A stretch of DNA of 62,600 nt, filler included, from Fonticula-like sp. SCN 57-25 (GCA_001724245.1; 12 parts of 12 records of this genome joined end to end with filler, not necessarily neighbours in it), one strand, 5' to 3'; shown: positions 1 through 59,169, numbered from the whole stretch's first letter. Notes: generated by a model from the sequence alone, not told the origin. Numbers and translations are program-made.

Positions 1-1546
1 ACGCACCTCTGACCAATGTGAAACTGGTTGTTGCGGCCGTTATGCCCAACATCGTGCGCCAGCGCCGCGATAAGCAGAGCAAAAATGTCTTGATAGTTTA
101 AAAATTGCGCCGCGCCGCCGACCTCGAGCTGCAGGAACAAAAACTGCGCCGCGTCGACCGCGTGGGTAAAGTTGTGGTACGGGATATCCGAATTGTACTC
201 CTTTGCAATGTTGGCCAAAAAGCTGCGCATCACGCGCTCGTCGACCTTGTACCGCTCGAGCAAGTTAAAGTGGACAAACATTGCGACGCAGAGGTCCATG
301 ATTTCCGAGCTGGCGTGCAGCACCGGGTCAAACGTCCACTCGCACAGGATGGTCAAGAGGCGCTCCCTGTGCGACACCTCGACCTCGTCGAGCAGCTGCA
401 CGATGCGGTCGGGCTCCAGCTGCATCGCCGACGTCGTCAGCGACTTGTCCTTTGAGCTGCTGTCCATCACGCTCAGCTGCGACAGCAGCCAGTCGCGCGT
501 CTGCGAGTCCATGTTGGTCGCCGAGTTGGACATGTAATAGTTGGGCAGCGTGTTGAGCGACTCAAAGGAAAGGTCCTCGAGAAGGTGAGTCACGTCGCGG
601 ATCGCGTCAATTGAGACGGTCTGGGAGGAGACAGAGTCGCGCAGGACGCGCAGCGCGTGCTGGAGCGGGCTTTCTAAAATCTACAAAAGAGCAGAAAAGG
701 CATGAGAAACAGCCTGGGAAAGGGAGCGGGGGCGTGCCTGGACACCCGACTCGCCGCCAAAAGTGGACGGCGGCGGCGGTGGGGGGCGTGACCGCGTTGG
801 GCGCATCATTGAATTCGTGTACGAATGGCTCCGGCCGCCCCTGCGTGGCACGTGTAAGACGAGATCCAAAGGGGAAAAAAAGAGGCGTACGCTTGGGCGC
901 GAGCGGCGGGCGAGGGATCCTGCGCAGCAGGGGCGTCGGTCTCCTTGGCGTCGGCCGCTTTCCTAAACTGCGACAGCTCGATCAGATTGCGGATGCGGAA
1001 GCCGACGGCGGGCAAATCCGCCGGCAATGTGATAACGTCCACGGCGCCGTAGGGGAGATCGGACAGGGCTCGCTTTGTTACAACTGTGCCAGCACGTATG
1101 AGGCCGCCGCCACTGAAGCTGACAAGTATAAATGAGAGAGCGCACCTGCGAGGACGACGTGCTTGCAGCTGCGCTTGAGCGCGATCGGCATCAAAGCGGC
1201 ATCGACAAGGACCACATCGTAAGCAGACGAATTTTCATTGTATTCCTCGGACGAAACATCGGCAAAATCAGAAACCACACAGACTATTAACCAACGGAAA
1301 ATATTTAGCTTCCATTCCCATTCGAGCGGTACTAGTGCGCACAAGTCAAGTTGGACGGGACCACGATGGTCTGAAACGTCTCGGCAATAGACTTGCTGAC
1401 CGTCACTACGAGAACGGCGCTTGTATTCTCGAGCCGATGAACTAAAGATCGCGATCGCGCGTCAGATATGGACAGATCGTCAGTGCCCGGCACGTACTGA
1501 CAGACGAGTCGCGCCGCTTGCGCATGAACTGCGCGAGGCGCTGCAT
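1..1546 (-). CDS. Class I cyclic-nucleotide phosphodiesterase with N-terminal degenerate receiver domain (RegA-like architecture); multi-exon, 3' end truncated by the window edge
   Basis: Minus-strand translation of ~1-680 (not in ORF track) gives IPYHNFTHAVD and IAALAHDVGHNGRNNQF, the PDEase_I metal-binding motifs. Upstream exons give AVLVVTV..YDVVLVD..VVLAVVT..GAVDVITLP (receiver-like). GT-AG introns; probable ATG at 1546. Confidence 0.88.
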
Positions 1547-24641: not shown

Positions 24642-25671
24642 ATGGACACGGGTGCGTTGACAAGGGAGGAGGTGCTTCGACGGCTTGAAATTGTCGAGCG
24701 GGAGAATAAGGCCATACAAGAGCAATTTGATGCTCTTGGTACGCATCGCTGCCGATTCGCTGGACGTTGCCGTTTGCTCACATATACGCCGGTAGTTGTC
24801 TCGGCTCTGAAGGAGAGGAAGGCCGAACAAGAGCAGTTTGATGCTCTTGGTACGCATCGCTGCCGATTCGCTGGACGTTGCCGTTTGCTCACGTGTACGC
24901 CGGTAGCTTCCTCGATTCTGAACGAGAAGAATGCCACACAAGAGCAATTTGAAGCTCTTGGTACGCATCGCTGCGACATTGCCGTTTGCTCACGTGTACG
25001 CCGGTAGCTTCCTTGCTTCTGAACGAGACGAAGGCCGCGCAAGAGCGACTTGAAGCTATTGGTACGCGTCGCCGCCGATTCGCTGGACGTGGCCTTTTAC
25101 TCACCAGTACGCCGGTAGCTGTCTCGGTTCTGGACGGGCTACCGAAACTCGGACAGCAGACCTACTCGAAATCCAACGCATCCGTCAATACGGCACACGC
25201 CACTGCGATGATCCGAGAACGCACCTTCAATCTGCTGGGAGAGGATCAGTACACGGTCCATCGCACGGATATGTCGAGGATTTGGACCGACGCTAAGGGC
25301 CGCCAGACCAGTCTCGAGTACTCCACTGAGGTTATCCAGTTTGTGCAATATGTGCTGCGTGATTTTGTCGACGCCCTTCCCGCGCTGCGCAGCAAGCATG
25401 TGCGTGTTGCGCCGCAGTTCAGTGCCTTTGGGGCGAGAACCAACATGCTGGTGCTGACGTCCGTCGGCGTTCCTGTTGGCGTGGTGGCGGTCAACATACC
25501 TCATAAAGGCATCCTGCACAGCGAGGGGGTGGCCGTGCAGCTGTTGGACTACATGAAGCAGATGCGGTCGTTTTATGGGCTGCGCGACGTGTTTGGCATT
25601 GCGACCACGTATGAGGAGTGGCGCGTGTTCTGGCTCCAGGACTGCGACGAAGCGGCCAAGAACACTGTGGT
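24642..25671 (+). CDS. Crinkler-like protein: repeated helical N-terminus plus degenerate restriction-endonuclease-like domain; 3' truncated
   Basis: YSTEVIQFVQYVLRD, VPVGVVAVNIP, QLLDYMKQMRSFYG..VFGIATTYEEWRVFWL recall PD-(D/E)xK domains of protist CRN-type proteins. Four GT-AG introns at the 5' end. Confidence 0.6.
24700..25135 (+). repeat. Four tandem ~111-bp units, each a 54-nt exon plus a 57-nt intron
   Basis: GTACGC...CCGGTAG introns at 24739-24795, 24850-24906, 24961-25007 and 25062-25118, separated by 54-nt segments. Confidence 0.9.
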
Positions 25672-25771: not shown

Positions 25772-27819
25772 GATTAAGAGGCTGCTGGCGTGCATTGACG
25801 AGCAGGTGATTCCGGCGGATTTGGTGGAGATGTTGGATGAGCCTGTGGGGCAGTTTTATGATGGGTGTCTCGTGGTGGAGGTGAGGAATTATAGGGGGGG
25901 GAGTGGAGTGGAGGTGAGGAGAGGGTTGTTGAGGCCGACGCAAGAGTCGATATATGCGGATTTGCATGTTTTGAATGCTCAATCGGGAGGTGCGAAAAAT
26001 CTAGTTTTTGTTACTTGTTTGGCTTGTTTTTGGTGCTTTTTGGTGTGTTTTGATACATGATTTGTTGTGTTTTGCTTGTTTTTTGTTGTTTGTTTGCATG
26101 TTTTTTGAGGTTATTTTTCCATTGTTGCTTGAATTGTTACTTGTGCTGCTTCTGATATTGTGACATTGTGATTTGTTCTTTTTCTTCTCCTTTCTGACAT
26201 TTCCCTTAGGCCGCTGGTCCTTGCCGCACTTTCTCGAGCTAGAGCGACGCATTCTCCTCCACACCGCCGACCCCCTCTGCCTCGACCCCTCCGTCAACGT
26301 CTCCCTCGTCCTCAACGCCGTCAACTACAACCGCGGCAAGGCGCACGTGCCGCTTCGCCGCCGCCATGCGGCCCCGCCCGCGACATTCCCGCCGCCGCCC
26401 ACGACGTTTCCCACGTGGAAGCCAAAGGAGAAATTCCTGCCAAAGTTTGCGCTGCTCAGCTTTCTCGAGCAGAAGCGCGCGGAAAATCCGGACACGTTTC
26501 CGGATTCGAGCCGCCTGCTCGTCCTCGGCGCGGTCAATAATGCAATGTCTGCTTCTAATGTGGCGTCGGCGGCGCCAGCAGCAGCAAGTGCGGGTGGTTC
26601 AGTGGCGAATGTGAGCGCCGCCGAGCCAGCAAAGAAGAGCGCGCCGCGCCGCGCGCAGTACAGCGAAGTGGCGAGCGTGCGCGGCTTTCCTATCCTGCCG
26701 ACGTACGCGCAGACGGAAATTTCGCTGCTGCGGCGGACGCGCTCGCGCGTGCTGCGCTATGAGAGCGCAGAGCTCAAGGTGGCGATCACGGCAGAGTTTT
26801 TCCGCGTGGCGGGGTCGCCGACGCCGCGCACGAGCAATGAAGTCGTGCTGAGAATTGCGCGGCAGGGCGACCACGGCGGGTCGAGTGGCGACGCGATGCG
26901 GTTCTTTGTGGGTGACGAGCTGTCGGCGAGCCAGTACGCGGTCAAGCTCGAGGATAGATTGGTAAAGTATGAGGGGTTTGTGTGCAAGCAGGACTCGGCG
27001 CTCAAGGAAGGCGGCGGCGCGGCGGGCGGCGCAGCGCATATCCAGGTGCACGGCGCGCAGGCGCAGGCGCAGGCGGCTGCTGCGGCAGCGGCGGCGGCGG
27101 CGCAGATGCGAAAGGGGCCGGCCATGGGGGCGCCCGCTGCCGCCGCGGCCGCCGCGGCGGGCATGAAGGGGCGGCCGGGCCAGATGCCGCCGCACGCCGC
27201 GGCAGCAGCGCAGGGCAAGCCAATGATGGGCGGCGCGATTCCGGCGGGGCGCATGCCAAAGGGCGCCGCGCCGCAGCAGCAGCAGCTTGCACACGCGCAG
27301 GAGATGCAGATGGCGGCGGGTCGCCCCGCGGCCGGCATGATGCAGGCGCCGAGCCCCGGCCGCCCGTCGATGCTCGGCATGGCCGCGGCCACGCAGATCT
27401 ACGGCGCGCGGCCGGCGGCGGGCGCGGCGCAGGCGGCGGCGCGGCCGGGCATGCACGCCATGCAGCAGGGCGACGCGGCGGCGGCGGCGGCGACGGTCAA
27501 CCCGATGGCGCTGATGGGCCGGCCGGGCGCGTACCCCGCGCAGCAGCAGCAGCAGCAGAGGCCCGTCGGCGGGATGGTGTCGGCGCGCATGATGCTCGTG
27601 AACCAGATGCAGCAGCAGCAGCAGCAGCAGGCGGCGGCGGCGGCGCAGGCGGGTGGCCGGCCGGGGATGGCGCAGCAGCAGCAGCAGATGACGCAGCAGC
27701 AGATGACGCAGATGCAGATGCAGCACCAGCAGCAGCAGATGGCCGTGAGGGCGGCGGCGGCGCAGGCGGCGGGGTCGCCGAGGCCGGCTGGGCAGCAGCA
27801 GCAGCAGCAGAGGCAGTAG
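25772..27819 (+). CDS. SPT20: SAGA subunit Spt20-like with Q/A/M-rich tail; 5' truncated
   Basis: IPADLVEML..FYDGCLVVEVRNYR..LLRPTQESIYAD and LELERRILLHTADPLCLDP (Spt20 domain). Intron ~25990-26209. Confidence 0.85.
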
Positions 27820-28076: not shown

Positions 28077-29920
28077 TCAGATGCGCGTGACATCACGTCC
28101 AAAGATCCACGTGAGGAACCAGTACATCGGAATAAGAATCTTATTCTTCATGCTGACCGTCTGCGTAAAGTACGCCGAGCGCCACAAGAGCCACGCGGCG
28201 CGCCCGCTCGTGCTGCCCGCCTCGGACGCGTCCACAAGCGCAGTCCAGTTGCCGAGGTACGCCATCGAAGCAAGGTGGTTGTACTTGAACGGCGCAGAAG
28301 CAGCGCCGTCTACGCCGCCCGCCTCGCCTTCCTTGGCGCGCCGGTTCATTTCTGCCGTGCAATGTGAGCAAATGTACGCACTTTTTAAGAATTAGGCGGG
28401 AAAATGCGCACCTCTGGCGAGATAAGCGCCCTGCTGCGACGCGACCTGCGCCGTGGCGGCGAGCGGCCCGCCCTTGATGCTCGCGGCGTCGCCGAGCGCG
28501 TACACGTTTGGCACGACGCTGCCGTTGGCGTCGAGGAGGCGCAGGCTGCCGTCGACGAGCGCGCGGCCGGCCTTGTCCTTGCCGGCGCCGAGCGAGCGCA
28601 CGAGCGGTACTGGCTCGACGCCGGTCGCCCACACAAGCAAGCCATATTCAAGCTGGGCAAACGTACCGTCAGCAAAGGTTAAATTGGGGCGAAATGGTAT
28701 GAAATTGGGATGAAATGGGCCAAAAATGAACCAAGATGGGACAAAAATGGGCAAAAAACATCAAAAAAAACGTACACGAGTGCCGTCGCTGAGTATCACG
28801 TGGTCTGCTTCGACGCCCTTGACGGCAACGCGGCTCTTGATGGCGACGCCGCCCTTGTTAAACTTTTTCATGGCATAGTCGCTGAGGGACTTGTTGAAGC
28901 CGCCGAGGATGCGGTCGCTCGCCTCGACGAGTGTGATGCGCACGCGGCTGCCAAGACGAGTGTACTGACGGCGGAGATCATCATGAATAAAGTCATACAC
29001 TAGAGGGGAAAAGTCGGGGTAAGTGAAAGAAAATAGAGTCATTTGCTTTTAAGAATGAACCAGATACCATAAGAGTCTGCAGGAATGATGCACAAATGAT
29101 AAGGAAATTTCGCGATAAATAACACAAATATTCACACGAGACACGTAGCTCAACATTATATTATACATGTAATTGCGTACACTCTCCGGCGAATTCGACG
29201 CCTGTTGGCCCACCACCGACCACCACAAAGTGCAGCAGCTTGTCTATCTGCTCCACCGTCATGCCCGGCTGGTGCGCCATCTCAAAGCCTGCATCGAGTC
29301 AGCGATCAAATAAAAAGAGCACGTGCGTACAGTCAATGATGCGCTGCCGAATGCGCCGCGCGTGGCTGATTTCCTTGAGGAACATGGCGTGCTCCTTGAC
29401 GCCCGGGATCCCAAAGGTGTTGGAGTTGGCGCCCGCGGCCACCACGAGATGATCGTACGGCAGTGTGAACGATGCCGACGCCTCGTTCTTGTCGCCGTAC
29501 GCCCACGTGCACGTCAGCTCCTTGCGATCGAGATCGATTGAGTTACACTTTGCTTGGTAGTAGTCGATGTCGGATCGCAATGATCGAAGCGATTCGGCCA
29601 CACTAGGGATCATGTCAGGGGGATCGCGGAGGATCAGATGGAGCGCACCAGCGATGCTCGATGGTGCCGACGGCCGTGCCCGCGAGCAGCGGCGTAAAGA
29701 CAAAGTGGTTGCGCGGGCTGACCACGACAACCTCGTGCTCTTGCGTCCTGATGTGGCGCAGGAGGGAGAAGGCGCCCCAGCCTGATCCGACCACCACGAG
29801 CCGGCCTGGAATCGCGATTGGATCTCAGCCATCACAACAACAGAGAGAGGCAGGCGTACCACGGGGCTTAACTACAGACACAATGCTGCGTCGCACTATG
29901 GTATTGCTTGCTGCGTTCAT
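28077..29920 (-). CDS. Type II (alternative) NADH dehydrogenase; multi-exon, start approximate
   Basis: [85 protein letters not shown]. Confidence 0.92.
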
Positions 29921-35674: not shown

Positions 35675-35821
35675 ACGGCGCGCCTCTGAAAAGAGTGCAA
35701 AAATTTGAAAATGGACAAAAAAGAATGGTTGAAGCTTTTTGCGCATTTCAAGTTCACTTTTATTTTGATGCCTTTTTGGAGTCGTTTATGTTGATTCGCT
35801 GTTTTCCACTTGCTTTTGTAT

Positions 35822-36457: not shown

Positions 36458-36778
36458 GCGCACTACAAGCTGAGTGATGACAGCGCATTTGCCCCGCCAC
36501 GTGACAGTGTTCTGTCATGGGACGAACCGCAAACTGCAAACTGGATCAAGTCACTTGGAGATCACTATGGGTGTTTGTCTGATGCTGGCTGGCACGGTGC
36601 TGCCCTATGTTCACTTTCGCCCATGCGTGTAATTGAGGCTGGCAAGGGAGCATTGAAGGCAATGGACGCAGCAAAGTTCATTGGAATGGTTCGTCAGATG
36701 CGAAAGGAAACTGACGGTGACAAGGACGAATGGGTGGCCAAGTGGAGTGGGACGACTCCCATTGACAACCAGGCCTAG
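36458..36778 (+). CDS. WD40-coiled-coil-SAM-SAM family, copy 1 (3' end only)
   Basis: Highly similar to the C-terminus of copy 2 (DAGWHGAALCSLSP...KWSGT.PID.QA*). Confidence 0.85.
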   Translation, partial: AHYKLSDDSAFAPPRDSVLSWDEPQTANWIKSLGDHYGCLSDAGWHGAALCSLSPMRVIEAGKGALKAMDAAKFIGMVRQMRKETDGDKDEWVAKWSGTTPIDNQA

Positions 36779-37609
36779 TATTCTTTTCATTTTATTTTGT
36801 TTCTTTGTAGACACGTGTCTACTACTATTCCACTTTCCCTTTCAATACATATTTTCTTCCTCTTCTCTTCCTTAAGTATTTATTCATGACATTGTGCTCT
36901 TGGATTACTATTCCCGCCATGGATACACTGCTCTCCCTTCTTGTCATACAAAATTGACTCTGTCCGCCGGCAATGCCACTATGTGGACGGCGTCGCATGA
37001 TGGTCATGGCCTTTGGTTGCGCGGGTCTCGGTGATGCCACGCGCGCGGCGGCGATCACGAGCGGACCATCGGCATCTTGGCGCGAGGTGCGATGTTGCCG
37101 ACGCGCATCGCGGAGCGCAGATCAGATCACTGCAGCCGTGAAGTATAGCGACAAGCAATAGTCTGGCCATACAACGATGATGTGGCGGTCCTCACCTTGG
37201 CAATCGGGCCGCGAATGCTCCACTCATTTGCAGCTGATTTGCTGCGGTCACTCGGCAGTCTGCGGTTTACAATATGCGCACTCACCAACAATTGGCAATC
37301 AACAATGCACGGCAAATTTGCTCTGCCTGTATCATACTGGTAAATGGCAAAACTGGCGGCGTGCTGGCAATCACCGGTCACCACTGGAGATCGTGGCCGG
37401 ACCAGGCCCGGATGCCCGGATGCCCGCGGAATGCGGGCGCCGCTCCCAATCACGTGATCAATTAGCGACTCCACGTGGCCGACTTTGCAGGGCGCCAACA
37501 AGAAGCTGGCAAGCGGGCCAGGAGCGACCGAGCGAGTGTCTGTCTGCCGCGCACGAGTGGGCATCAGTTGTGGTTGTAGGAAGTGAAAGAGGAAAGAGTG
37601 GTGGACGCA

Positions 37610-39706
37610 ATGGCGAATCAACTGGTGAAGAAGACGGCTATTAAACCCCACACGAATCACGTACGACTGTGTTTCCCACTCGTGATGTGCTGCTGGTCTG
37701 ACGCCATTTGTGATTTCAGGTGTACGCGTGTGCATTATCCCCTGATGGCGCTTCGGTGGCAACTGGTAGTGAAGACAATTCACTGTGCATCACCAATATT
37801 GCCACGCAGGCAAAGGTGTACGCAGTGCAGCGTAATAAATTTGTACGCTCCTTGCTATCCTCTCTTATTGGACTCTTTTAGACTTTTGTTTTGACCATCG
37901 TGTAAGATGTATGATGTGGCGTGGTCGCCCGACGGGACGCGTCTTGTCGGCGTGACATGGAGTGGCGAAGTCATCCAAGTCACAGACAACAATGCGCACT
38001 CGACCGTGTACAAGATCGACAAACCTGTATGCATCATGTTGGCCGCTCCTTTCTTTACTTATTGCTGTCTAGTTGAGTGGATGCGCGTTCAGTCCTCGCG
38101 GGATCCTTGCCGTCGGTGGAGATGATATAGCAGTGACACTCTTGGATCCATCCAACAACTATGCACTCATTCAAACATTGACTGGATTGTCTAATAGGGT
38201 GCGTTAGTGAATGATTACTTGCTGTTGCTCACAATTAGTTATACAGGTGTGGCGTGTTACCTTTTCCCCCGATGGGAATCTGCTTGTCGCGGGATGCTAC
38301 GATGGCCACATGTACATTTATAAACTGTCCAATGGCAGGTGGGCACAAGTATCAGTGAACGAGCATCATTCTGAGAGGGTATTGATATTTATCTTGATAC
38401 TACTACTTACTACTTTGTAAATTGTCACCAGATCTTGTCTCTGTGCTTCAGTCCCTCTGGCCGCATGCTATTGGCCACGAGCGTTGACAGGACTGCTTCC
38501 ATTTGGAATGTTACATCACTAACCACGTGGCCATCTACTCCTCACGTGACACTCAATGGGCACACGGAACAAGTCAGAGGGGGCGCTTTTCTCGGAGACG
38601 AGTCGCACGTGATCACTGGGTCAATCGATAAATCCCTCCGAATTTGGCGCACTTCTGATGGAGCTCAAACTGCAATCTACCAATGTGGTGGTCCCGTATG
38701 TGTCTCATTTGTACCTATTTGTGCTTACCTATGGGCTTATGCAGGCGCGTTCACTGTCGTATCACGCTGAGTCTGGCAACATTATTGTTGGTCTTGATGG
38801 TCACGTGGAAATGTGGCAAACTGATCCTTATAATGCCCTTCCCGCCCACGTGTGCGTCCGCGAGCGACTTGCGGAAGCGCAGGCACAAGCCAAGGATATT
38901 GGGACATCAATTGAAAATTTCGACAGTGGAATACGTCAGCAAATGTCACGTGAACAGGAATTGAAGTGCTCGATTACCGACCTCGAGGCTAAATGTGCGG
39001 GCATATATGATCTTCATACTATAGTACTAACGTGTATCTAGTGGCGAGTGAGAAAAAAGCACTTGAGGAACTGCAAACTCCCGAGTATATTGTACAGTCA
39101 CGTGACCTGACCAAGCTGGTGGAGCGCCACAATGCTTTGCTTGGCATCATCAATGTCTGCACGCAGACACTTGACAGTTTGACAGACTGCCTGAAGACTT
39201 CTGGACTAGAGGACCTCCGCGGCGACGCCTTTAACGAGTGGCTTTGTGACATTGGCATGTGCAAACTGCAAACTACCCTTAAGGACATTTATGGCGCAAC
39301 ATTGAACATGTTTCACGTCGACAATGTGATGGAGTTTGGTGTGTCATTTAAAGATGCCGCTGCAGTTCAACTGCGTGCCTACATTGCGCACTACAAGCTG
39401 AGCGATGACAGCGCATTTGCTCCGCCACGTGACAGTGTTATGTCATGGGACGAATCGCAAACTGCAAACTGGATCAAGTCACTAGAAGCTCCATATTCTT
39501 CTCTTGCTGATGCTGGCTGGCATGGAGCCGCTCTATGTTCACTTTCGCCGACGCGCGTGGTCGAGGCGGGTAAGGGAAAGCTCAAAGCACCGGATGCAGT
39601 AAAGTTTATTGGAATGGTTCGTCAAATGCGAAAGGAAACTGACATTGACAAGGACGAATGGGTGTCAAAGTGGAGTGGGACGGTGCCAATTGATCTTCAA
39701 GCCTAG
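37610..39706 (+). CDS. WD40 (7 blades)-coiled-coil-tandem SAM-like protein, copy 2 (complete, 8 exons)
   Basis: Exons 37610-37660, 37720-37842, 37907-38026, 38073-38198, 38247-38378, 38432-38695, 38745-38994 and 39042-39706 splice in frame at GT-AG. SPDG/GH..WD motifs. SAM-like EWLCDIG..IYGATL and SWDESQTANWI..WHGAAL. Confidence 0.88.
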
Positions 39707-40556
39707 TATTTTATTAATTTTCGTTGTGTTTCACTGTTAACATTTATGTGCCTTTTCAAATTTCAGTTTACCTTTCAATACTTATTCACTGTACTTCTTC
39801 TTGTCTTCCCATAATAATTGATGTGCTCTTGGATTACTATTTCCACCACTGATATAGTGTTGACTGCTCTCCCTTTTTGTAATACAAAGTCGACTCTGTC
39901 TGCCGTCCAATGCGTCCATGCCATTCTGTGGACGGCGTCACATGATGGACATGGCCTTTGTTTGCAAGGGTCTCGGTGATCCCACGCGCAACGATGACGA
40001 TCACGAGCGGACCATCGGCATCATGGCGCGAGGAGCGATGTTGCCGGCGCGCATCACGGCGCGCAGTTCAGATCACTGCAGCCGTGTATCATAGTGGCAA
40101 GCAATAGTCTGGCCATAAAACAATGATGTGGTGACCTCAAGTAGCGGCCGTCACCTTGGCAATCGAGCCGCGAATGCTCCGCTACTCATTTGCTGCGGAT
40201 ACTGGGCCGTCTGCGGTTTACATTAGGCGCACTGGCCAATTGGCAATCAACAATGCACGGCAAATTGGCTCTGCCTGTACTGGTGAGTGGCAAAACTGGC
40301 GGCGTGCTGGCAATCGCCGGTCAGCATTGGAGATCGTGGCCGGATCAAGCCCGGATGCGCGCGGATGGCTGCCAGGCTGCCGCCGCTCGCCCCAATCACG
40401 TGATCAATTTGCGTCTCTACGTGGCCGACTTTGCAGGGGCGCCAACAAGAAGCTGGCAAGCCAGCCAGGAGCGACCGAGCGATTGTCTGTCTGCCGCGCG
40501 TGAGTTGGTAGCAGTTGAGATTATTGGAAGAGCAAGCGAGAAAAGTGCTGGGCGCA

Positions 40557-42163
40557 ATGGCGAATCAACTGGTGAAGAAGACGACTATTCAAACGCACTC
40601 GAGTCACGTACGACTTTGTTACCCCCGCTCGCGAATCGGCGAATGTTGCTGATGCAGCGATGCTATGGTGTATTCAGGCGTGGAGGTGTCCGATTTCTCC
40701 CGACGGCACTTTGGTGGCAACTGGAAGTCAAGACAAGACACTCTGCATCACCAACATTGCCACGCAGGCAAAGGTGTACACTGTGCGGTGCGATAATATT
40801 GTACGCGGCTTGCCGTCCTCTTTTTTTTTTAATCTCTTTTCTGCTGACCATCGTGTAAGGTGTGGGATGTCGTGTGGTCGCACGACGGGACGCGTCTTGT
40901 CGGCGTGACTCAGAGTGGCAGTGTTGTACAAGTCACAAACAACAATGCGCACGCGACCGTGCACAAGATCAACACATATGTACGCATCACGTTTGCCTCT
41001 CTTTGCTCTGGCTCATCCCTTGTCTAGTTGTATGGATGCGCGTTCAGTCCCAGTGGGATCCTTGCCATCGGCGGAGCTGACCAAGCAGTGACACTCTTGG
41101 ATTCATCCAAAAACTATTCAGTCATTCAAACATTCACCGGGTTAGTTCATTATGTGCGTACATGAAGAATTCATTCTTTTATTGCTCACAGTGTGGGATA
41201 CAAGGTGCGCTGTCTCGCCTTTTCCCCCGATGGGAATCTTCTTGTCGCGGGATGCCAAGATGGCCATATGTACATTTATGGACTGACCAATGGCAAGTGG
41301 GCGCAAGTATCAGCTATCAGGCATCATTCTAGTCACGTATGATATTCGCCTTTATTTTCTCATTTCTAATGATACTAGATTCGTTCACTCTGCTTCAGCC
41401 CCTCTGGCCGCATGCTATTGGCCACAAGTAGTGACATGGCTGCTTCCATCTGGAATGTTCCATTTAATTTCACATGGCCATCCACTCCTCACATNTGACA
41501 CTCAAGGGGCACCAGAATCAAGTCTTTGGTGGTGCCTTTCTCGGCGACGAATCGCACGTGATCACTGGGTCGACAGATTGTACCCTTCGCATTTGGCGCA
41601 CCTCTGATGGAGTGCAAACTGCAAACTATCAATGTGGTGGATCCGTATGTGTCACTTGCTGGTCTATTTTTAGCACTCATCCTAGCTCCTCCTCAGGTGA
41701 CGTCATTGTCGTATCATGCTGAGTCTGGCACGATCGCAGCTGGACTAGCTGGCCACGTGGAAATGTGGCAAACTGCTCCCTTTAAAGCTCTTCCCGCCCA
41801 TGTGTGCGTACGCGAGCGATTGGCGGAAGCACAGGCACAGGCCAATGGTATCCAAGCATCACTTGACAAGGCTTATAGTGGATTGCGTCAGCAAATGTCA
41901 CGTGATTTGACCAAGCTGATGGAGCGCCATGATGCTTTACTTGGCATCATTCATGTCTGCACGCAGACACTTGACAGTTTGACAGATTGCTTGTATGTGT
42001 CCGGATTGGAGGACCTTCGTGGTGCCGCCTTTAAGGAATGGCTATGCGACATTGGAATGAGCAAACTGCAAACTGCGTTCAAGGACATTAATGGCGCTAC
42101 TTTGACGATGCTCAATGTGGACAGTGTGATGGAGTATGACGTCACCTTTAACGATGCCGCTGC
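40557..42163 (+). CDS. WD40-coiled-coil-SAM family, copy 3 (3' truncated)
   Basis: Same exon layout as copy 2. The single N at 41495 is a probable scaffold join. Lacks 35 codons and one intron relative to copy 2. Confidence 0.8.
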
Positions 42164-48439: not shown

Positions 48440-49839
48440 TTACACAGGTGCCAAATACATTTCAATAAACCTAATAAAGATGGATTGGAGTGCATTAATT
48501 GTTGGCCAATGTAATGCTGCCCAATCATCATCGTAACGATGCCATACGTCTGGAAATGGTGCTGTACACACAATTTTCAATAGAGTCAGCTATTATTTGC
48601 TTCCCATCCACTGATACAGTCACAATACACACACATTTACACTTTCATCTCCCATTCACACACACATCCACACATCCACACATCCACACATCACTTATAT
48701 CTACTCGCACACATCCACCACCACTTCCACCATTTCCACATACACGGTATTATGTGCAATACTGGCACCCCTCGAACAAAGAAGGGTACATGATCATCTT
48801 CTATGAGTGCATTCACACGACTGCGCGAGAAGAAGGCATAACGTGTGGAGAACTGTGTATTGAGCTGGGCCTCCGCATCTGCTAGCATGTTATACAAGTG
48901 GTCCACGTTTCTCTGAAAGTGCAGTTCGTAATTGTAAAATTTTGTACCAGCAGTGCCAATCAAGTCCAACAGCACAAACAGCGAGATGCTAGATAGCCTA
49001 TTCTCACGCTCCCACTGCTGGGCCAGTGCCCTCGCACCGTACAGCGAATCTTCAGCACTCCAGTTCTCAATAGCCTCTTCGCCATCAAAGAAGACCAACT
49101 GTATCTCACTCACACGCACACGTCTCCCACCCTCATCCCGTTGCACTGCACTCGCATTGAGGAGGAGCACAGGGATCTGCTCAGCCAGATGCAGCAGCAT
49201 TGCACAGGGAACCGCGCTATCGGTGGCCCCCAGGAACACAAAATCAAAAATCTTGCTGTCATAGTGACACGCAAGTAACAGTCTTCGGGACGTCTCTCTG
49301 CTCTCGTTTGGGTGGTGGAGACCATACGTGGCGATAATGTTGCGAAACACGACGGGACCCTGGAACCTCGGCACCCTCTGGTACTCGTGCTCCACGGTTT
49401 CCACGCGCCAGCCGAACAGTGCGAGCATGCGTTCGAGGTATCTGCGCGTCTGGTCGTGCCCCTGGGAGTGAATGGTGCGCGGGCCAAAGGAGAGCAGCGT
49501 GTGCGTGTGGTTCATGACGCTGAAATTTGAGGAGTGAAATGAGGGGAGTGGCGGTTTGATGGGATTGCGTCTCGAAGCATTGGATACATGCCACACGAAA
49601 ACTGCACCAAGTGTGACAAGAAGGGCTGCAAGACCAGTTGCAACTATTGCTGTGAGAATGGCGCCCCAGGTTCCACATGCACTCTTCTTGTTATCCAGAA
49701 ATTTACTTCTCCCGGTAGTGCTGGTGGTGCTGTTGGCACTTTGACTTGTCCCCTCTTCCTCTTGATCCCGTCTCCGTTTTACAAGTTGTTTAGATGAAAC
49801 CATGGACTCGTCTTCCTCTTCTTCTTCAGTTGTGCGCAT
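48440..49839 (-). CDS. Glutaminyl-peptide cyclotransferase (M28 family), membrane-anchored isoQC type
   Basis: TM anchor, LACHYDSK, GATDSAVPCAM, FFDGEEA, DSLYGAR, LLDLIG, IEDDHVPF. Last exon PFPDVWH after an intron at ~48562-48745. Confidence 0.92.
48661..48692. repeat. (CACACATC)4 microsatellite in an intron
   Basis: Read directly from the sequence. Confidence 0.85.
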
Positions 49840-50366
49840 TCAACAAGAGTTGACAAACTCTCTACGGGATCTCTTACAATCGCGTGTTTCGGTTGATTTG
49901 ATTCAATTCAATTCAATTTCCTTTTGTTTTGGAACTTGTGTTATTCAGCGTAGAAAAACTCGTTTTATGCTAGGTTCAACTGATCATGAACCTGATACCT
50001 ATTGTAACACAGCAGAAAGTGTTCATGGGTACTGATTTACGAAAGATAAAGAACTACGAGGAATCAACAAGATAAAACACTTGTCCAAGTAGATTAGGCA
50101 CAAGGAATTTTGGGGTTCCCTTCTGGATTCTCTTTCAAACGCAATCCAAATCAGTAGATCTAACCATCATTGTTTATTTTGTAGGTAATTGCTAATTACC
50201 TTCCAATTGCTTTGATAGTTTGGGTTGTGGATAAGTACAATTGTGGTAGCTGTTCTACCAAACCTTATGCAAGAGTAATCAATTTGGTTGAAGTTTGTTG
50301 GAAAATTGATTCTCAGTTTGCTCCCAAATTGCGAAAATGAAAAATTAAGTAGTGTTGGAATTCGTT

Positions 50367-51986
50367 TCAGAACGGCCTAAAGATATTTGGTTTCTCTTTC
50401 AATGGAGAAACAAGTGGCGGAGATTCAGCTTCATAATTACTAGCAGTGATAAAGGTGGAGCTACTTTGAGAAGCAACTCCAACTGCACTATTACTGACAG
50501 GTTGGAATTCGTCAAAATCGTCTGTGAAGTGTTCTTCGCCCACTGTACTCTGTATTTGTTTGTTTGGGGTGATGGGTGGAGTTTGTTGTTTAGATGAGCG
50601 ACTCTTTGGTGAACTCTTTGTTGATAAAGAGCTCACACTTTTCCTTTGGTTATTCGTTGGTTTCTTCTGTGAAGTAGTAGGTGGCTGATTCTCATCCTTA
50701 TTTCTTGTTGCTTTGTTGTGTAATGGTTTCCCAATGTTCACTTGGTCATTCTGCTGCTGCTGTTTCTTCATCTCGGTTTGAATGGAACTGACCTCTGCCT
50801 TCATCTTTTTGAGTGCAGCTTGTTTTGACTTTGTCTCCACATCAATTCTCTTCTTTAAATCATTTATCAATGTATCTTTTTCGTCAATCTCTTGCTTCAA
50901 CTTATTCAACAATGCAATATTATCCAGATTCAAATTAACACTCTTGAGTGCCTGTTCGTATTTGTCGCATCGATGTAACGATTTCATAACCTTATCATTG
51001 CTTTTGTCCAATTCCAGTTTCATCTCAATCAATTTTTCTTTATTTTGTTGATACCGCGTTTTGAGTGACCTGTAATCAGCGGAAATTTGATCAATCGTTT
51101 TATCTTGACCCACATTCATCTTTTCTAAGGACTTAGCTTGTTCTCTTACAGTGTTACGAAGAGAGATATTTTCAGCTTGAACCTGATCGACTTCTCTCTT
51201 CTTCTCTTTGAGTAAATTTTCGAGAGTAACAATCTTGTCGATGTTGTTTGACATATACAATTGCCGTTTGAGTTGTTCATTTTGTTTTTTTAGTGAATCA
51301 ATTTGTTTCTGCACACTCTTTTCTTTATCATTAACTGGTTGTCGTTTTGGTATACCAGCTTTACTAGCTACTTTTACACCTTTGGAATATAATTGCTGGT
51401 CTACCAATTTGTTGAGCTCCATTAGTTGATCCTTCAACACAGAATTCGCTTTCTTCAGCTTTTCTATTTGCTCCTTGTCACTTTGAGAATAATGATTCAG
51501 AGGGCCGTCGTTATTATCCACTGGATGTTTATGCAAATAAGTGTCAAAAGAGATCTCTGTAATTTGAGGAGAATGATGATTGTGCACAGAAACCAGTTCG
51601 CTCTGATTAAAATTTTGTTGCTCATTTTGTTGATACTGATCGAAAAGTTCTTGCTGAGAGTGGTTTTGGTTCACACTTGCGGTATCTCCTTGTTCAACAG
51701 GCTGTTCATCTTGGAGACCCTCGTGATAGAAATCATGTATCTTGTGGGCCTCATCCTGTTGGGAATTGTGATCCACGTGTCCAAACTCTTCCTCTTGGAA
51801 GGGAGTTCCTAATGCGTCATCTCGCCTCTCTTCAAGCTCATTGTACGAATAGAACCCCTCATCGTACTCTTGCTCTGCGTCTGGTTCAACCTGCTGAAAT
51901 CTATATTTGTTCTCTTGGTTGGATTCTCCCTGGGCGAACATTTTGGGGTCCTCTGTATAATCGTCAAATACATCATCGCTGTCCAT
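50367..51986 (-). CDS. Intronless coiled-coil protein with acidic N-terminus; function unknown
   Basis: Long AT-rich ORF with K/E/Q heptad pattern; first ATG (MDSDDVF) at 51986. Confidence 0.75.
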   Translation of the reverse strand: MDSDDVFDDYTEDPKMFAQGESNQENKYRFQQVEPDAEQEYDEGFYSYNELEERRDDALGTPFQEEEFGHVDHNSQQDEAHKIHDFYHEGLQDEQPVEQGDTASVNQNHSQQELFDQYQQNEQQNFNQSELVSVHNHHSPQITEISFDTYLHKHPVDNNDGPLNHYSQSDKEQIEKLKKANSVLKDQLMELNKLVDQQLYSKGVKVASKAGIPKRQPVNDKEKSVQKQIDSLKKQNEQLKRQLYMSNNIDKIVTLENLLKEKKREVDQVQAENISLRNTVREQAKSLEKMNVGQDKTIDQISADYRSLKTRYQQNKEKLIEMKLELDKSNDKVMKSLHRCDKYEQALKSVNLNLDNIALLNKLKQEIDEKDTLINDLKKRIDVETKSKQAALKKMKAEVSSIQTEMKKQQQQNDQVNIGKPLHNKATRNKDENQPPTTSQKKPTNNQRKSVSSLSTKSSPKSRSSKQQTPPITPNKQIQSTVGEEHFTDDFDEFQPVSNSAVGVASQSSSTFITASNYEAESPPLVSPLKEKPNIFRPF

Positions 51987-52226
51987 TTCCTTGGTTGTGA
52001 AGGTTGTTGGCGCCAACAAAAACAAACAAACAGTAGGTTCAGGTACTGGTTTTGGCGCCAACTAGGACAGAAAATTGGGAAAAGTTGGTTCACTGTGAAA
52101 CTGTGTTCCCAGGCAGCACCAAAGTGTTTGTGAAGAAAACAAACCACACCTGCCAAGTAAGGAAATTGCAAAAAGAAAACAACATCTGTTTATTTTACAC
52201 TCCGTGCATAACTGCAGAACCAATTG

Positions 52227-53525: not shown

Positions 53526-54693
53526 ATGTCGGCGGCGCTGTTGGCGGCGTGCGTGCAGGCCAAGCTCGGCGAGCTGCCGCACAGCCTCGGCTCGAACAAT
53601 GCAATGTTTCTAGAGTATGTGATGACGATGCTGGCGAACGGAAAGGGGCCGGATGATGTGTCCAGCAAGCTCGATGTGTTCCTTGGCGGGAGCGCGGCCG
53701 AATTTAGCGAGTGGTACGCGCGGGCGCCAACATCTTTCGCGGACCTGAATTTTGGCGCTCTTTCTTTACAGGCTGTTTTCTACAAAGGCTCACCTTGACG
53801 CGGGCGAGTTTTTCGCCGTGGCGCGGACGATGCGCCAGCCACCCGCCCTTCTCCTCGATCGCGGGGCCGACCTTACCATCGAGCCAAAAATCGAGCCCAC
53901 GGTGATCATCAAGCTCGAAGACGCCCTTGATCTATCTCACTCGTCGCCCGCGCCGGCCGCGCGCTCTTCGTCGCGCTCGGCTGCGGCGGACGAGTCGCCC
54001 GGCCAGCGCATCCTCTCGTCGATCCTTCGTCCGACGCCCAAGAAGACACGTCGGCAGCGCCGTCATCACGACATTGACATGGACGCCCACTCCAATATCA
54101 AGGACGAAGAGGAGGAAGAAGAGGACGTGCTCGGTCACCGTACGCCGCAGCAGCAGCGCCGGTCGCGTTCCGAGCGGTTCGGCCGCGCCGCCCGCGAGCT
54201 GATCACCCCTGGCCGCTCGCCCATCTTTGCGCGCCTGGCGCCCGTGCAGTCGCCGCTCGCGGCCATCCAGAATCAGCGCCTGCGCGCGTCTGCGCCGGGC
54301 CGCGCGGCCGCCAAGCGCTGCAAATTTTTTCCGCAGTGCGCGCGGTTAGACTGCCCTTACAGCCACCCATACATCGTCTGCAGGTGCGAAATTGTGACTT
54401 TTTGTTGCTTTTTGCGGCTTTTTTTCGGCTCTTTTTGAGACTTTTCGCTCCACTTTTACTGACTTTACACTCTAAGGTTCTTTCCTGCGTGCACGAGCGG
54501 CGAGCAGTGCCCTTTCGTTCACCCCGACGCCGACGGCGTGTACCAGAACGCGCCTCCGCCAATGGCGCGCATCAATGCGCCGTGCTGGTTTGGTGAGACG
54601 TGCCTGCGGCCCGACTGCAAGTTTGTGCACGAGACAGACATTATCCACCGCGCCACGGCGGTGCAGGCGGCGCGCGGGACGAACGGCGAGTAA
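53526..54693 (+). CDS. PWI-like N-terminal domain plus CCCH zinc fingers (Nab2/ZC3H14-like RNA-binding protein)
   Basis: EYVMTMLANGK..VSSKLDVFLG..AEFSEW. Fingers CKFFPQC...CPYSHP, CRFFPAC...CPFVHP, CWFGETC.RPDCKFVH. Confidence 0.8.
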
Positions 54694-54861: not shown

Positions 54862-55779
54862 CTACTCGGCCTTGTTGGCGTCCTCTTCGGCCTCGATTCT
54901 TTCCTTCTTTGCCCTCTTTTCCGCCTTTACCAGCAATTCCTCGTCGATCACCTTCACAGCGAGGTGCGCCGCCGCCGCCTGCATGAGCCCGTAAAGGCAA
55001 AAACTAATGACGGGCATGTCGATGACGAGCGCGAGCGGCAGCGTAAAGCCGCACAGCAGCATCCAGTGCTTCTTGTACATTGTGCGGTAGTCGCTAAAAG
55101 CGGGCTTGAGCCGCGCAAAGGCGGGCTCGAGCAGCTCGCGGAGCAGCGAGTGCGCGAGGCCAAAGTACTGCAGCATGGGCGTGAGCAGCACGGGGAAGAA
55201 AAAGGAAAGCGCGACGAGCGCGATCACGGTGCGCTTGGGGAACCAACGGTAGAGAAGAAGGGCGTTGGCAACGTACGGCGCGAGCGATCCCAGCAGAAGC
55301 ATCCGCGCCAGTACGTACAGGCACGCGTACGCGGCGTAGCGGAGGTAGCGCTTCACGAGAGCGCGGAGGTTCTCGCCAAAGGACCGCGATGGCAGCGCAG
55401 TGATGCGCTCCGCCATGGTGTGATCGACGATGCGAAGGCTGTCGAGAAAGAGGCGCTCGAGCACATCCCACCAGACAGTCTGCAGCAGAAAGAGCGCAAA
55501 AACAGACGACATGAGGATGGCGGACCGCGCGTGGTCGTCAAAGTTGTGGTCGATCTCGTCGATGCCGCCGCCGCCGCCCCAAAAGAGCTGCAGGAACAGC
55601 TGGCCAATGATGCGCCCGATGGCCTCTACCACTGCCCACGACATGAACAGGGATATCGACACGGCGCCGATCACCACGAGGCGCGCGAGCGACTGCTGGT
55701 ACGTCGAGAATACCTGCGGCGACCGCAGCGCCGTAAGGACGCCCCGCTGGGCGACCATGACGCCTTCGAGGACCTCCAT
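54862..55779 (-). CDS. Multi-pass membrane protein (possibly EI24/UsgS-like)
   Basis: 305-aa ORF with about 5-6 hydrophobic helices; family is tentative. Confidence 0.65.
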   Translation of the reverse strand: MEVLEGVMVAQRGVLTALRSPQVFSTYQQSLARLVVIGAVSISLFMSWAVVEAIGRIIGQLFLQLFWGGGGGIDEIDHNFDDHARSAILMSSVFALFLLQTVWWDVLERLFLDSLRIVDHTMAERITALPSRSFGENLRALVKRYLRYAAYACLYVLARMLLLGSLAPYVANALLLYRWFPKRTVIALVALSFFFPVLLTPMLQYFGLAHSLLRELLEPAFARLKPAFSDYRTMYKKHWMLLCGFTLPLALVIDMPVISFCLYGLMQAAAAHLAVKVIDEELLVKAEKRAKKERIEAEEDANKAE

Positions 55780-57595: not shown

Positions 57596-59169
57596 GGAGG
57601 TGAGCAGGTTGGACTCGAGCTTTTCAAAGCCAAACGACTGGATAAGCGTCGGAAGGTAGAACGAAATCGCATACGTCGGCGTCACTAAAGCAGAAGAGGT
57701 TAAAAAGAGAAATGAATCGAAAATGTACTTGAATCAATGTACAATGGTAGGCAAAAGGGTGAAAAAGAACGATAAAGAAACGAAATACCATACAACAAAC
57801 ACTCGGAAAACACAATAAATAGCCATGAAACAGCGACAAAACAGCGATAAAACAGCGACAAAAAAACAAAAATCATTCTAAAACATCAATTTACACCAAA
57901 AACAATCACCTTCTTCTCCTCCCCATTCATCTCAGCGTACCGACACAAAAAAGCATGACGGCAAACCCCCACACCTTCACCGACAGGAACGTATCCTTAA
58001 TAGCCGCCATATCAATCTTTGAGTGATTCCCAGTATTCTGCATATGCGTCAGACGCGACGTGGCAAACGCGCGCTCCTGCGGCGTGAGCCACTTTGCCGT
58101 CGCGGCAAAGTCCGGCAGCATGAACCACGTGAGCACGCCAAACAAGACCGACGGAATTCCCTCAATCAAAAAGAGCCACTGCCACGCTTCGAACGGCTCG
58201 ACGTTTTCCATCTGCAGGATGCCGTATGCGAGGAGGCCGCCAAAGGCGCCGGCGAGGGCAGAGGAGCAGTAAAAGAGCGCGATGCGCAGGCCTTGCTCGC
58301 TGCGCTGGTACCAAAAGGTGAGGTAAAAGACGATGCCGGGGAAGAAGCCGGCTTCGGCAATGCCGAGGAAGAGGCGGACGAGGAGGAGGTGGTAGTACTC
58401 GGAGATGACCACCATGCAGCAGGAGCAGATGCCCCACGCGATCACAATGCATCCGATCCTAGTGCAAACAGTCTGTCAGAGGGGGTAAAGTGATCGCGGT
58501 AAAATGGGGAATGGCGAATCTGGCGAGAAAGTATGCAATGGGGCATCACGCAATACAATCATAAAAGCACAATAGTATCCAAAGAAGCAAAGCAGACAGG
58601 CAATGCTGCACGAAAAGCAGGCGTACCACACGCGCGGGGGGACCTTTTTGAGGACGAGGTTGGAGGGGATCTCAAAGAGAATGTAGCCAATGTAAAAGAT
58701 GCCGACCGCCATACTGTACTGGATGGCGGTGAGGCCAAGCGCCTCCTGAAGATCCTGCTTCACATTACCTAGCACGGCGCCGATCAGATCCCGCTCTGCA
58801 TCCCGCGCGGACGCGCTGGTCCACGCGTGCAAAAGCAAGCGTACTAATGTTGCTGCGATCGAGGAACGAAAGCAGGTACAGCCACGAGACAAACGGCAAG
58901 ATCTTCCAGTCTAACGCCCCAGTTAGCCACAACAGCTCACAAGCCGCCACGCGCACCGATCTTGCGGACCAAAGCCGCCTCATCGACCTTGCTTTTGTCC
59001 GCCATGTTTGGAGCCCCTGCACACGCCGCGGCAAACTGTTGTGGACTCAGGGGTGGATTTGGGGGCAGACTTTTCAACCAATCAAAAAAATCAGACATTC
59101 GATGTCATCAATGTCAGCAAACAGTCCAGCATCGTCGTAGTCCGGCTTTTCCTCTACGCCAGGCGCCAT
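57596..59169 (-). CDS. MFS anion:cation symporter (allantoate/Tna1-like permease); multi-exon, 3' truncated
   Basis: LDWKILP..YLLSFLDRSNI, FYIGYILFEIPSNL, RLFLGIAEAGFFPG, WY.RSE..RIA.FY, AWQWLFLIEG. Confidence 0.92.

What the first reader, a model, noticed from the sequence alone, without database searches (positions are those of the whole stretch)
57689..57940. Long introns consist of sense-strand T-tracts phased at ~10-11 bp (PATC-like)
Seen: in this MFS intron, top-strand A-runs start near 57702, 57710, 57720, 57732, 57743, 57753, 57762, 57774, 57783, 57797, 57807, 57817, 57828, 57838, 57849, 57860, 57868, 57880, 57888 and 57898. That is about one per helical turn for 200 bp, with mostly non-repetitive spacers. 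Unrelated genes on other contigs show the same pattern, always T on the sense strand, while ordinary 40-70 nt introns show no such extended pattern. Known: periodic An/Tn clusters occur in C. elegans introns and counter silencing, and phased A-tracts bend DNA and affect nucleosomes. Inference: a second intron class with a DNA-structural or chromatin role in a non-nematode microbial eukaryote.
Basis: partly seen in the sequence, partly recalled or inferred. Interest (0 to 1): 0.72.

Follow-up and report, generated by a model that had tools for sequence, protein, structure and literature searches.

The report
Helically phased T-tract arrays in introns
Several longer introns of an uncultured microbial eukaryote carry rows of short T-runs spaced one DNA helical turn apart, a pattern best known from nematode worms, but what it does here is untested.

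Summary
Positions 57685-57940 are a real 256-nt intron of a minus-strand MFS transporter gene: 8 of 8 homologues align straight across it. 17 of the 20 listed positions start an A-run of 3 or more. The Fourier peak is at 10.5 bp (AA: 0 of 1000 dinucleotide shuffles reach it).

The title over-generalises. Only 5 of 13 long introns, on 4 of 12 contigs, are individually strong. However, 9 of 13 peak at 10.1-10.95 bp, and the pooled period is 10.65 bp (10.55-10.90). T is on the sense strand in 7 of 7 intronic chains. Exons show nothing. Short introns hold too few T-runs to test.

The arrays are local degenerate minisatellites. Neighbouring 10-11-bp units resemble each other, but units differ between introns and there is no shared element. 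A related strain differs by indels of about one unit and keeps the periodicity.

My best reading (0.5): unit duplication in T-rich introns, constrained to the DNA helical repeat. This resembles C. elegans PATCs but is T-only, shorter and slower in period. Curvature and any chromatin role are inferred. There is no RNA data, no chromatin data and no whole genome.

The parts
57685..57940 (-). Target: 256-nt spliceosomal intron of an MFS transporter gene (donor GTACGC at 57940, acceptor TTTAG at 57685)
   Evidence: 8 of 8 homologues align contiguously across it; splice sites and flanking coding scores; MFS_1 Pfam hits in the flanking ORFs
57702..57902 (-). Array of about 19 oligo-T tracts on the sense strand (A-runs on the + strand), period 10.5-10.65 bp
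   Evidence: retained in a related strain's allele
57817..57863 (-). Best-preserved tandem units inside the array (11-bp unit, 3.3 copies, 92% matches; also read as a 22-bp unit)
   Evidence: TRF; a related strain lacks 12 nt here
57941..58458 (-). Upstream MFS exon
57596..57684 (-). Downstream MFS exon (runs off the contig end)
25914..26209 (+). 296-nt intron with a phased T-tract array (about 26001-26115), period about 10.95 bp
   Evidence: Boundaries come from my own heuristic gene model only; the donor score is weak
28653..28775 (-). 123-nt intron of a type II NADH dehydrogenase gene, almost entirely a phased T-tract array, period 10.5 bp
   Evidence: the Pyr_redox_2 profile is contiguous across it (226 then 224)
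54384..54476 (+). 93-nt intron of a CCCH zinc-finger gene; 7 T-tracts fill the space between donor and branch site, period about 10.75 bp
   Evidence: The frame check is my own reading; the automatic model gave 54336-54497 instead
670..890 (-). 221-nt intron upstream of a phosphodiesterase exon; 5-tract phased array at 676-722 next to the acceptor
   Evidence: Boundaries are heuristic
55439..55525 (-). 87-nt intron with a weak signal from only 3 tracts
   Evidence: (p_band 0/500), but normalised power is only 6.5
29000..29180 (-). 181-nt intron of the same NADH dehydrogenase gene; marginal periodicity, one 4-tract chain
   Evidence: (p 0.046)
35689..35777 (.). Unassigned DNA just after the EF3 stop codon: four phased A-tracts followed by phased T-tracts

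Best explanation
The region is a genuine intron. About 200 nt of it is an array of oligo-T tracts on the sense strand, alternating with G/C-rich spacers and spaced one DNA helical turn apart.

The same kind of array sits in at least four other introns on three other contigs. I read these arrays as degenerate, fast-turning-over minisatellites. A unit of T-tract plus spacer, 10-11 bp long, is duplicated and lost locally by slippage inside introns that are already T-rich on the sense strand.

Arrays whose unit length matches the double-helix repeat are the ones that arise or persist. The constraint therefore acts on the DNA rather than on the RNA. It could be selection for intrinsically bent, torsion-responsive or nucleosome-organising DNA inside transcribed genes. 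It could equally be a mutation process that depends on helical phase. This works like the periodic A/T clusters (PATCs) of C. elegans.

Shown here: the phasing, its period, the strand rule, the enrichment in introns, the similarity between neighbouring units, the absence of a shared family, and unit-sized indels between strains.

Inferred: the helical-phase constraint, any curvature, and any chromatin or supercoiling role.
For: 1. Phasing beats composition.
- Target AA peak at 10.5 bp: 0 of 1000 shuffles reach it.
- Pooled TTT-TTT distances in 13 long introns peak at 10-11 (z 6.6), 21-22 (5.8), 32 (4.6) and 43 (3.7).
- Chains of 4 or more phased runs: 9 observed against 1.0 expected, maximum 4 in 100 shuffles.

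2. The period is the helical one, and only that one.
- In an unbiased scan of periods 5-20 bp, the 4 loci with normalised power of 14 or more all peak at 10.25-11.5 (P about 2.5e-5).
- 9 of 13 long introns peak at 10.10-10.95 (P about 1e-5).
- Pooled period 10.65, bootstrap interval 10.55-10.90.

3. Different units, same period.
- TRF consensus units differ between introns.
- blastn between the 13 long introns finds only three T-rich matches of 13-16 nt, and nothing elsewhere in the window.

4. Growth by duplication.
- Adjacent units are visibly alike.
- Non-T identity at lag 11 has z 2.7-2.8 in two introns.
- A related strain's allele has deletions summing to 11 nt and a separate 12-nt deletion. 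It still peaks at 10.40 bp with power 19.5, against 15.6 for the reference.

5. Location and controls.
- 7 of the 9 chains lie in introns, which make up about 3.4 kb of roughly 60 kb.
- Exon cores show no signal.
- 26.7 kb of metagenome loci carrying an MFS relative have 0 of 49 strong windows at 10-11 bp.

6. No sign of an RNA-structure role: fold z-scores are +1.68 and -0.30.

7. Precedent. PATCs are intronic 10-bp A/T-tract arrays. A 2026 preprint derives them from minisatellites remodelled under transcription (10.64898/2026.08.08.743475; abstract and sections 5, 6 and 13 read).
Against: - 8 of 13 long introns are not individually significant.
- Outside the stretches that TRF calls arrays, periodicity is weak or absent: the target's left flank gives p 0.036, and the other five flanks tested give p 0.13-0.43.
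- Tandem arrays of other unit lengths (7, 8, 12 bp) are also enriched over shuffles in non-exon DNA: 27 observed against 6.3 expected. For periods 10/11/21/22 the figures are 12 against 2.3. Duplication as such is therefore not specific to this period.
- Slippage by whole units keeps the phase automatically, so the strain comparison does not show selection.
- Of 12 substitutions between the strains in the intron, 4 fall in A-runs, and A-runs cover about 31% of it. This is my own count. The tracts are not visibly protected.
- The strict sense-strand rule and the intron enrichment would also fit an RNA-level cause.
- The anti-phase of G/C against T is nearly forced by composition and adds nothing.
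- The sample is about 60 kb from a metagenome bin, and the intron models are my own heuristics.
- No physical measurement of any kind was available.
Confidence: 0.5

Rival explanations
1. Neutral minisatellites. T-rich introns slip between neighbouring T-runs, and the resulting 10-11-bp unit arrays have no helical meaning and no function. The match to the helical repeat comes from the typical spacing of T-runs at this composition.
For: - Degenerate tandem units.
- Unit-sized indels between strains.
- Tandem arrays of many unit lengths are enriched in non-exon DNA.
- No excess conservation of the tracts: 4 of 12 substitutions fall in runs that cover 31% of the sequence (my own count).
- Periodicity fades outside the arrays.
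Against: - All 4 of the strongest loci, and 9 of 13 long introns, share one narrow period, although their units are unrelated.
- Shuffles that keep local composition and dinucleotides do not reproduce the chains.
- In two arrays (25914, 54336) the T-tracts are phased while the spacers show no lag-10/11 identity.
Confidence: 0.27
2. RNA-level element. The U-tracts in the pre-mRNA are binding sites for a U-rich-binding splicing or packaging protein that coats long introns at a fixed step. The match to the DNA helical repeat is a coincidence.
For: - T on the sense strand in 7 of 7 intronic chains.
- Strong enrichment in introns.
- Arrays fill the space between donor and branch site.
- The intron RNA is no more structured than its shuffles, so it would be accessible.
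Against: - The period equals the DNA helical repeat within 0.15 bp.
- Phased tracts also occur in unassigned DNA, including A-tracts on the sense strand just after the EF3 stop codon.
- 8 of 13 long introns do without strong arrays.
- No branch-site-like motif is enriched in the units: 0 exact against 0.43 expected, and 7 against 9.3 with one mismatch.
Confidence: 0.13
3. One mobile element or introner-like family that carries an internal 10-11-bp repeat and has inserted into several genes.
For: A known precedent is that PATC signal in C. elegans maps to Helitron minisatellites (preprint section 5). Introner families are known in some algae and fungi (recalled, not read here).
Against: No similarity between the 13 long introns beyond T-rich matches of 13-16 nt, and no copies elsewhere in the window. 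Units differ between arrays. Only about 60 kb was sampled.
Confidence: 0.04
4. Chance, or an assembly artefact of low-complexity sequence.
Against: The shuffle tests and the unbiased scan. Independent runs hold contigs that cross the same intron.
Confidence: 0.02

Closest known systems
Periodic An/Tn clusters (PATCs, 'hyperperiodic DNA') of Caenorhabditis elegans
   Same: Both are short A/T homopolymer tracts phased at about one helical turn. Both lie mainly in introns of protein-coding genes and turn over fast. A 2026 preprint links PATCs to minisatellite ancestry and to transcription. Sources read: PMC4947018 passages, PMC1474062 passages, and preprint 10.64898/2026.08.08.743475 abstract plus sections 5, 6 and 13.
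   Different: - Here the tracts are T only, on the sense strand, with no A-to-T cross phasing.
- Arrays span 40-200 bp, not hundreds of bp to kilobases.
- The period is 10.65 bp (10.55-10.90), against the roughly 10 bp reported in those papers.
- There is no shared parent element.
- The host is a microbial eukaryote of unresolved lineage.
- The official PATC score could not be run.
- PMC4947018 states that most genomes outside nematodes lack comparable PATC frequencies.
Degenerate minisatellites (cryptically simple sequence)
   Same: Head-to-tail units with partial similarity (69-94% matches over 2-4.7 copies), and copy-number differences between strains.
   Different: Independent arrays with unrelated units converge on one unit length, equal to the helical repeat. 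In two arrays only the T-tracts are periodic, not the spacers.
Phased A-tract bent DNA (kinetoplast minicircles and similar short bent segments)
   Same: Homopolymer A/T tracts in helical phase separated by G/C-rich spacers. This is the classical recipe for intrinsic curvature. The comparison with trypanosome DNA is made in the abstract of PMC1474062 (listing).
   Different: These arrays lie inside nuclear spliceosomal introns and follow the strand of transcription. Curvature was not measured or modelled here.
Introner and introner-like elements
   Same: They account for unusually long or numerous introns in some microbial eukaryotes (recalled; a search listing only).
   Different: The defining multi-copy sequence family is absent in this sample.
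About 11-bp A/T periodicity of bacterial genomes
   Same: A period slightly above 10.5 bp, usually read as matching negatively supercoiled DNA (abstract of PMC4132750).
   Different: That is a weak genome-wide bias found in coding DNA too. Here the signal comes from discrete strong arrays confined to non-coding DNA of a eukaryote.

Membership tests
PATC (C. elegans periodic An/Tn clusters) | A/T homopolymer tracts phased at about 10 bp | tested here: met
   Phasing is significant. The period is 10.65 bp (10.55-10.90), somewhat longer than the roughly 10 bp stated in the papers read.
PATC (C. elegans periodic An/Tn clusters) | Both A-runs and T-runs take part in the same phased cluster | tested here: not met
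   All 7 intronic chains are T on the sense strand. There is no AAA-to-TTT or TTT-to-AAA phasing at 10-11 bp in unassigned DNA. Long introns hold 3 A-runs of 4 or more in 2213 nt.
PATC (C. elegans periodic An/Tn clusters) | Extended clusters (hundreds of bp to kb) that make up a sizeable fraction of the genome | tested here: inconclusive
   Arrays span about 40-200 bp in 5 of 13 long introns. Only about 60 kb is available and no genome is held.
PATC (C. elegans periodic An/Tn clusters) | A score above threshold in the published PATC algorithm | not testable with these tools
   The algorithm and its thresholds were not on hand. Fourier and distance-histogram tests were used instead.
PATC (C. 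elegans periodic An/Tn clusters) | Protects genes from silencing; intrinsic curvature measured | not testable with these tools
   The organism is uncultured. No chromatin data were available, and no physical assay was possible.
Minisatellite / tandem repeat | Head-to-tail copies of a unit with sequence similarity beyond composition | tested here: met
   TRF arrays with periods 10/11/21/22 occur in the periodic introns. Arrays of these periods are enriched over shuffles, 12 against 2.3. Lag-11 identity of non-T bases has z 2.7-2.8 in 2 of 4 tested and is absent in the other 2.
Introner / transposon-derived intron family | Many near-identical copies in different genes | tested here: not met
   blastn among the 13 long introns and against the whole window finds only T-rich matches of 13-16 nt. 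The sample is small.
Spliceosomal intron (for the target itself) | GT..AG boundaries, frame continuity, and homologues contiguous across the gap | tested here: met
   (8 of 8 homologues). There is no RNA evidence of splicing.

The most novel reading that the evidence does not exclude
A unicellular eukaryote has independently evolved a PATC-like system. Helically phased oligo-T arrays grow by unit duplication in introns. They are kept because their period, slightly above 10.5 bp, makes the DNA bend or writhe under the negative supercoiling left behind RNA polymerase. That would organise or exclude nucleosomes and keep the host genes active. If so, sequence-encoded DNA mechanics in introns would be a recurrent solution across eukaryotes, not a nematode or metazoan peculiarity.
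Probability: 0.2. Interest if true: 0.8.

Novelty: new variant of a known kind. Interest (0 to 1): 0.55.

Why it matters
Phased A/T-tract arrays in introns are so far a well-studied feature of Caenorhabditis. The papers I read put comparable signals outside nematodes at 'most genomes do not' (PMC4947018), or discuss only Metazoa: the 2026 preprint contains no mention of 'fungi' or 'protist'. My searches listed no description of such arrays in introns of a microbial eukaryote.

If the pattern holds genome-wide, this organism gives an independent, compact test case. Its introns are short and its arrays are discrete, so one can ask whether helical-phase arrays arise from mutation alone or are kept for a mechanical or chromatin function.

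It also matters in practice. These arrays explain why some introns in an otherwise short-intron genome are long, and they could confuse gene prediction.

Tried and rejected
- Whole genome: none is held.
- RNA evidence: no RNA holder is listed among 17 runs, so splicing and expression could not be checked.
- Orthologous introns: the one metagenome scan returned 4 loci with an MFS relative at 53-54% identity, read there as an almost uninterrupted frame. It gave no orthologous intron and served only as a negative control.
- More DNA from relatives: EF3 scans of viral contigs found nothing. The genome-contig scan found one bacterial ABC protein at 25% identity.
- Taxonomy: the Atlas gave only EF3 clusters of mixed taxa. 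The best named EF3 hits are 50-57% identical (marine protist transcriptomes, a diatom, a prasinophyte), and unnamed relatives reach 68-71%. The best named MFS hits are fungi at about 50%. The lineage stays unresolved.
- Duplicated branch-site units as the source of the 10-11-nt unit: not supported.
- RNA secondary structure: none beyond shuffles.
- One repeat family: rejected.
- G/C in anti-phase with T: true but nearly forced by composition, so I did not use it.
- Automatic gene parse: it over-predicted tiny exons. I kept only introns with good flanking coding scores (26), plus 11 added by inspection, which are less certain.
- Earlier findings of this scan: nothing relevant.
- The supplements of the bioRxiv preprint and Table S4 of PMC4947018 (PATC content of other genomes) were not seen. 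They could name microbial genomes with PATC-like signal.

Full report
**Setting.** The window is not one locus. It is 12 contigs of about 5 kb joined by N spacers. No whole genome is held. The DNA comes from a metagenome: one run holds 98% of the target contig's sampled words, and 15 others hold parts. The genes are eukaryotic: EF3, protein kinases, PIP5K, Dna2, Pex2/12, MOZART1 and a lebercilin-like protein. The lineage is unresolved. The best named EF3 relatives are 50-57% identical (marine protists, a diatom, a prasinophyte), and unnamed ones reach 68-71%. The best named MFS relatives are fungi at about 50%.

**The target is an intron.** On the minus strand a donor GTACGC sits at 57940 and an acceptor TTTAG at 57685. 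Both fit the consensus I derived from 26 confident introns, GT[AG]CG[CT] with a CTGAC/CTAAC branch site. The flanking frames carry MFS_1 hits. Eight of eight full-length homologues align up to about 57936-57969 and resume at about 57679-57715, with no residues missing.

**The observation.** 17 of the 20 listed positions start an A-run of 3 or more, and three are only AA. The Fourier peak is at 10.5 bp for A, AA, AAA and run starts. For AA, 0 of 1000 dinucleotide shuffles reach it in the 9.5-11.5 band and 1 of 1000 at any period.

**Is it general?** I built a crude gene model from a codon log-odds score trained on Pfam-supported frames plus splice-site matrices. I kept 26 introns with good flanks and added 11 by inspection. 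That gave 13 long introns (87-296 nt) and 23 short ones (42-76 nt).
- Two more periodic introns are independently supported. The Pyr_redox_2 profile runs on across 28653-28775 and 29000-29180. A CCCH finger starts right after 54476.
- Per intron, normalised power exceeds 15 in 5 of 13: 670-890, 25914-26209, 28653-28775, 54384-54476 and 57685-57940. The other 8 reach at most 6.7 (shuffle tests).
- Even so, 9 of 13 have their peak between 10.10 and 10.95 bp, against about 1.9 expected (P about 1e-5).
- Pooled TTT-TTT distances peak at 10-11, 21-22, 32 and 43 nt (z 6.6, 5.8, 4.6, 3.7). Without the five introns that stood out (25914, 28653, 54384, 55439, 57685) a weak echo remains (z 2-3).
- The pooled period is 10.65 bp, with a bootstrap interval over introns of 10.55-10.90.

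**Unbiased scan.** I scanned 105-bp windows over all contigs for periods of 5-20 bp. Fifteen separate loci reach normalised power 10. The four above 14 all peak at 10.25-11.5 bp, and all four are introns. The weaker ones scatter over 6-19 bp, as noise would (P about 2.5e-5). Chains of 4 or more same-letter runs spaced 9-12 bp number 9, against 1.0 expected. Seven lie in curated introns, all with T on the sense strand.

**Other sequence classes.**
- Exon cores (30 kb) show nothing.
- The 27 kb of unassigned DNA shows a weaker same-strand peak (z 5.2 at 10, 2.9 at 22-23) and no A-to-T cross phasing. Some of that DNA may be unannotated introns.
- One clear non-intron case lies just after the EF3 stop codon: four A-tracts followed by T-tracts.
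- Loci from another organism that carry an MFS relative have 0 of 49 strong windows at 10-11 bp.
- Short introns are not T-rich (29% T, 0.92 T-runs of 4 or more per 100 nt, against 40% and 2.76 in long ones). They are too short to test.

**What the arrays are made of.** TRF calls short degenerate arrays with periods 10, 11, 21 or 22 in exactly these introns, each with a different consensus unit. Cutting the sequences at each T-run shows neighbouring units that resemble each other. Non-T bases show excess identity at lag 11 in 28653 and 57685 (z 2.7-2.8), but not in 25914 or 54336. Outside the TRF stretches the periodicity is weak (p 0.036) or absent. That test is partly circular, because TRF at this threshold detects phased T-runs as repeats. 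There is no sequence family: between introns only T-rich matches of 13-16 nt appear, and nothing elsewhere in the window. In three of the five introns, what remains after removing the array is about the size of a short intron. This is my reading. The arrays look like the material that made these introns long.

**Turnover.** Contigs from other metagenomes cross the intron. One 287-nt contig of run X6 differs from the window by 12 substitutions and 31 gap letters within the intron, but by only 1 substitution in 106 nt of exon. Its gaps include deletions that sum to 11 nt at 57778-57796 and a 12-nt deletion in the 11-bp tandem units. Applying these differences in a script gives an allele that still peaks at 10.40 bp with power 19.5, against 15.6 for the reference. 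Whole-unit slippage would do this without selection. Four of the 12 substitutions fall in A-runs that cover 31% of the region, so there is no sign that tracts are protected (my own count).

**Mechanism.** Duplication alone does not explain why unrelated units share one length. Tandem arrays of other lengths are also enriched in non-exon DNA, but none forms a strong T-tract array. The shared length equals the DNA helical repeat, which points to the double helix rather than to the RNA.

The strand rule follows from the general T over A skew of long introns (40% against 17%). An RNA-level reading, with U-tract binding proteins, still fits the intron enrichment and the strand rule, and I cannot exclude it. 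I found no RNA structure and no branch-site-like units.

By analogy with PATCs I favour a DNA-mechanical constraint. A 2026 preprint reports that PATCs arise from minisatellites in transcribed genes and bend DNA. Nothing here measures bending, nucleosomes or expression.

**Comparison and novelty.** Against PATCs the arrays match in phasing, intron location and rapid turnover. They differ in four ways: T-only composition, shorter arrays, a period of 10.65 rather than about 10 bp, and the lack of a parent element. The published PATC score could not be run. One PATC paper states that most non-nematode genomes lack comparable signal. The preprint surveys Metazoa only. Five literature searches listed no report for introns of microbial eukaryotes. 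The unseen supplements could change that.

I rate it a new variant of a known kind and solid as an observation. It is limited by sample size and by the absence of functional data.

Noticed in passing
window-wide (26 confident introns, e.g. 2607-2652, 53714-53771, 58459-58626): The splice donor consensus is an unusual GT[AG]CG[CT] (GTACGC or GTGCGC), with a CTGAC/CTAAC branch site 10-25 nt before the AG. This could help place the organism and tune gene prediction.
   Followed up: partly
24702-25136: A 111-bp tandem repeat (4.0 copies, 82% matches) whose unit holds donor-like GTACGC motifs. My parse read it as repeated 54-nt exons separated by short introns, that is, a tandemly duplicated exon-intron module.
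   Followed up: no
22117-24381 (+): A 755-aa ankyrin-repeat frame with 102/204/306-bp DNA periodicity over about 1.5 kb.
   Followed up: no
35689-35777: Directly after the EF3 stop codon there are four A-tracts about 10 bp apart, followed by T-tracts at similar spacing. This is a phased array outside any modelled intron, and the first half has A on the EF3 sense strand.
   Followed up: partly
49740-52061: A 2-kb stretch of only 37% G+C overlaps a 564-aa open frame (50370-52061, minus) with a weak lebercilin-like hit. Its codon usage does not fit the model trained on the other contigs. It may be a different organism in the bin, or an atypical gene.
   Followed up: no
36458-42163 (contig 8): Coding scores are low under the same codon model. 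WD40 hits and identical intron ends (TGACCATCGTGTAAG at about 37906 and 40859) suggest a duplicated gene segment.
   Followed up: no
58459-58626: The neighbouring 168-nt MFS intron is exactly 56 codons long and was crossed by single tblastn alignments. A prokaryote-style gene caller would therefore translate it. It is not significantly periodic.
   Followed up: partly
61576: A contig of run X2 lacks 11 nt here relative to the window. This is another helical-turn-sized indel, in a region I did not model.
   Followed up: no
3682-3783 (-): This 102-nt intron inside a kinase gene is 61% T with nearly continuous T-runs and no stop codon in frame. It is read through as part of a 581-aa open frame. 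Its periodicity is not significant, perhaps because T has filled the spacers.
   Followed up: partly
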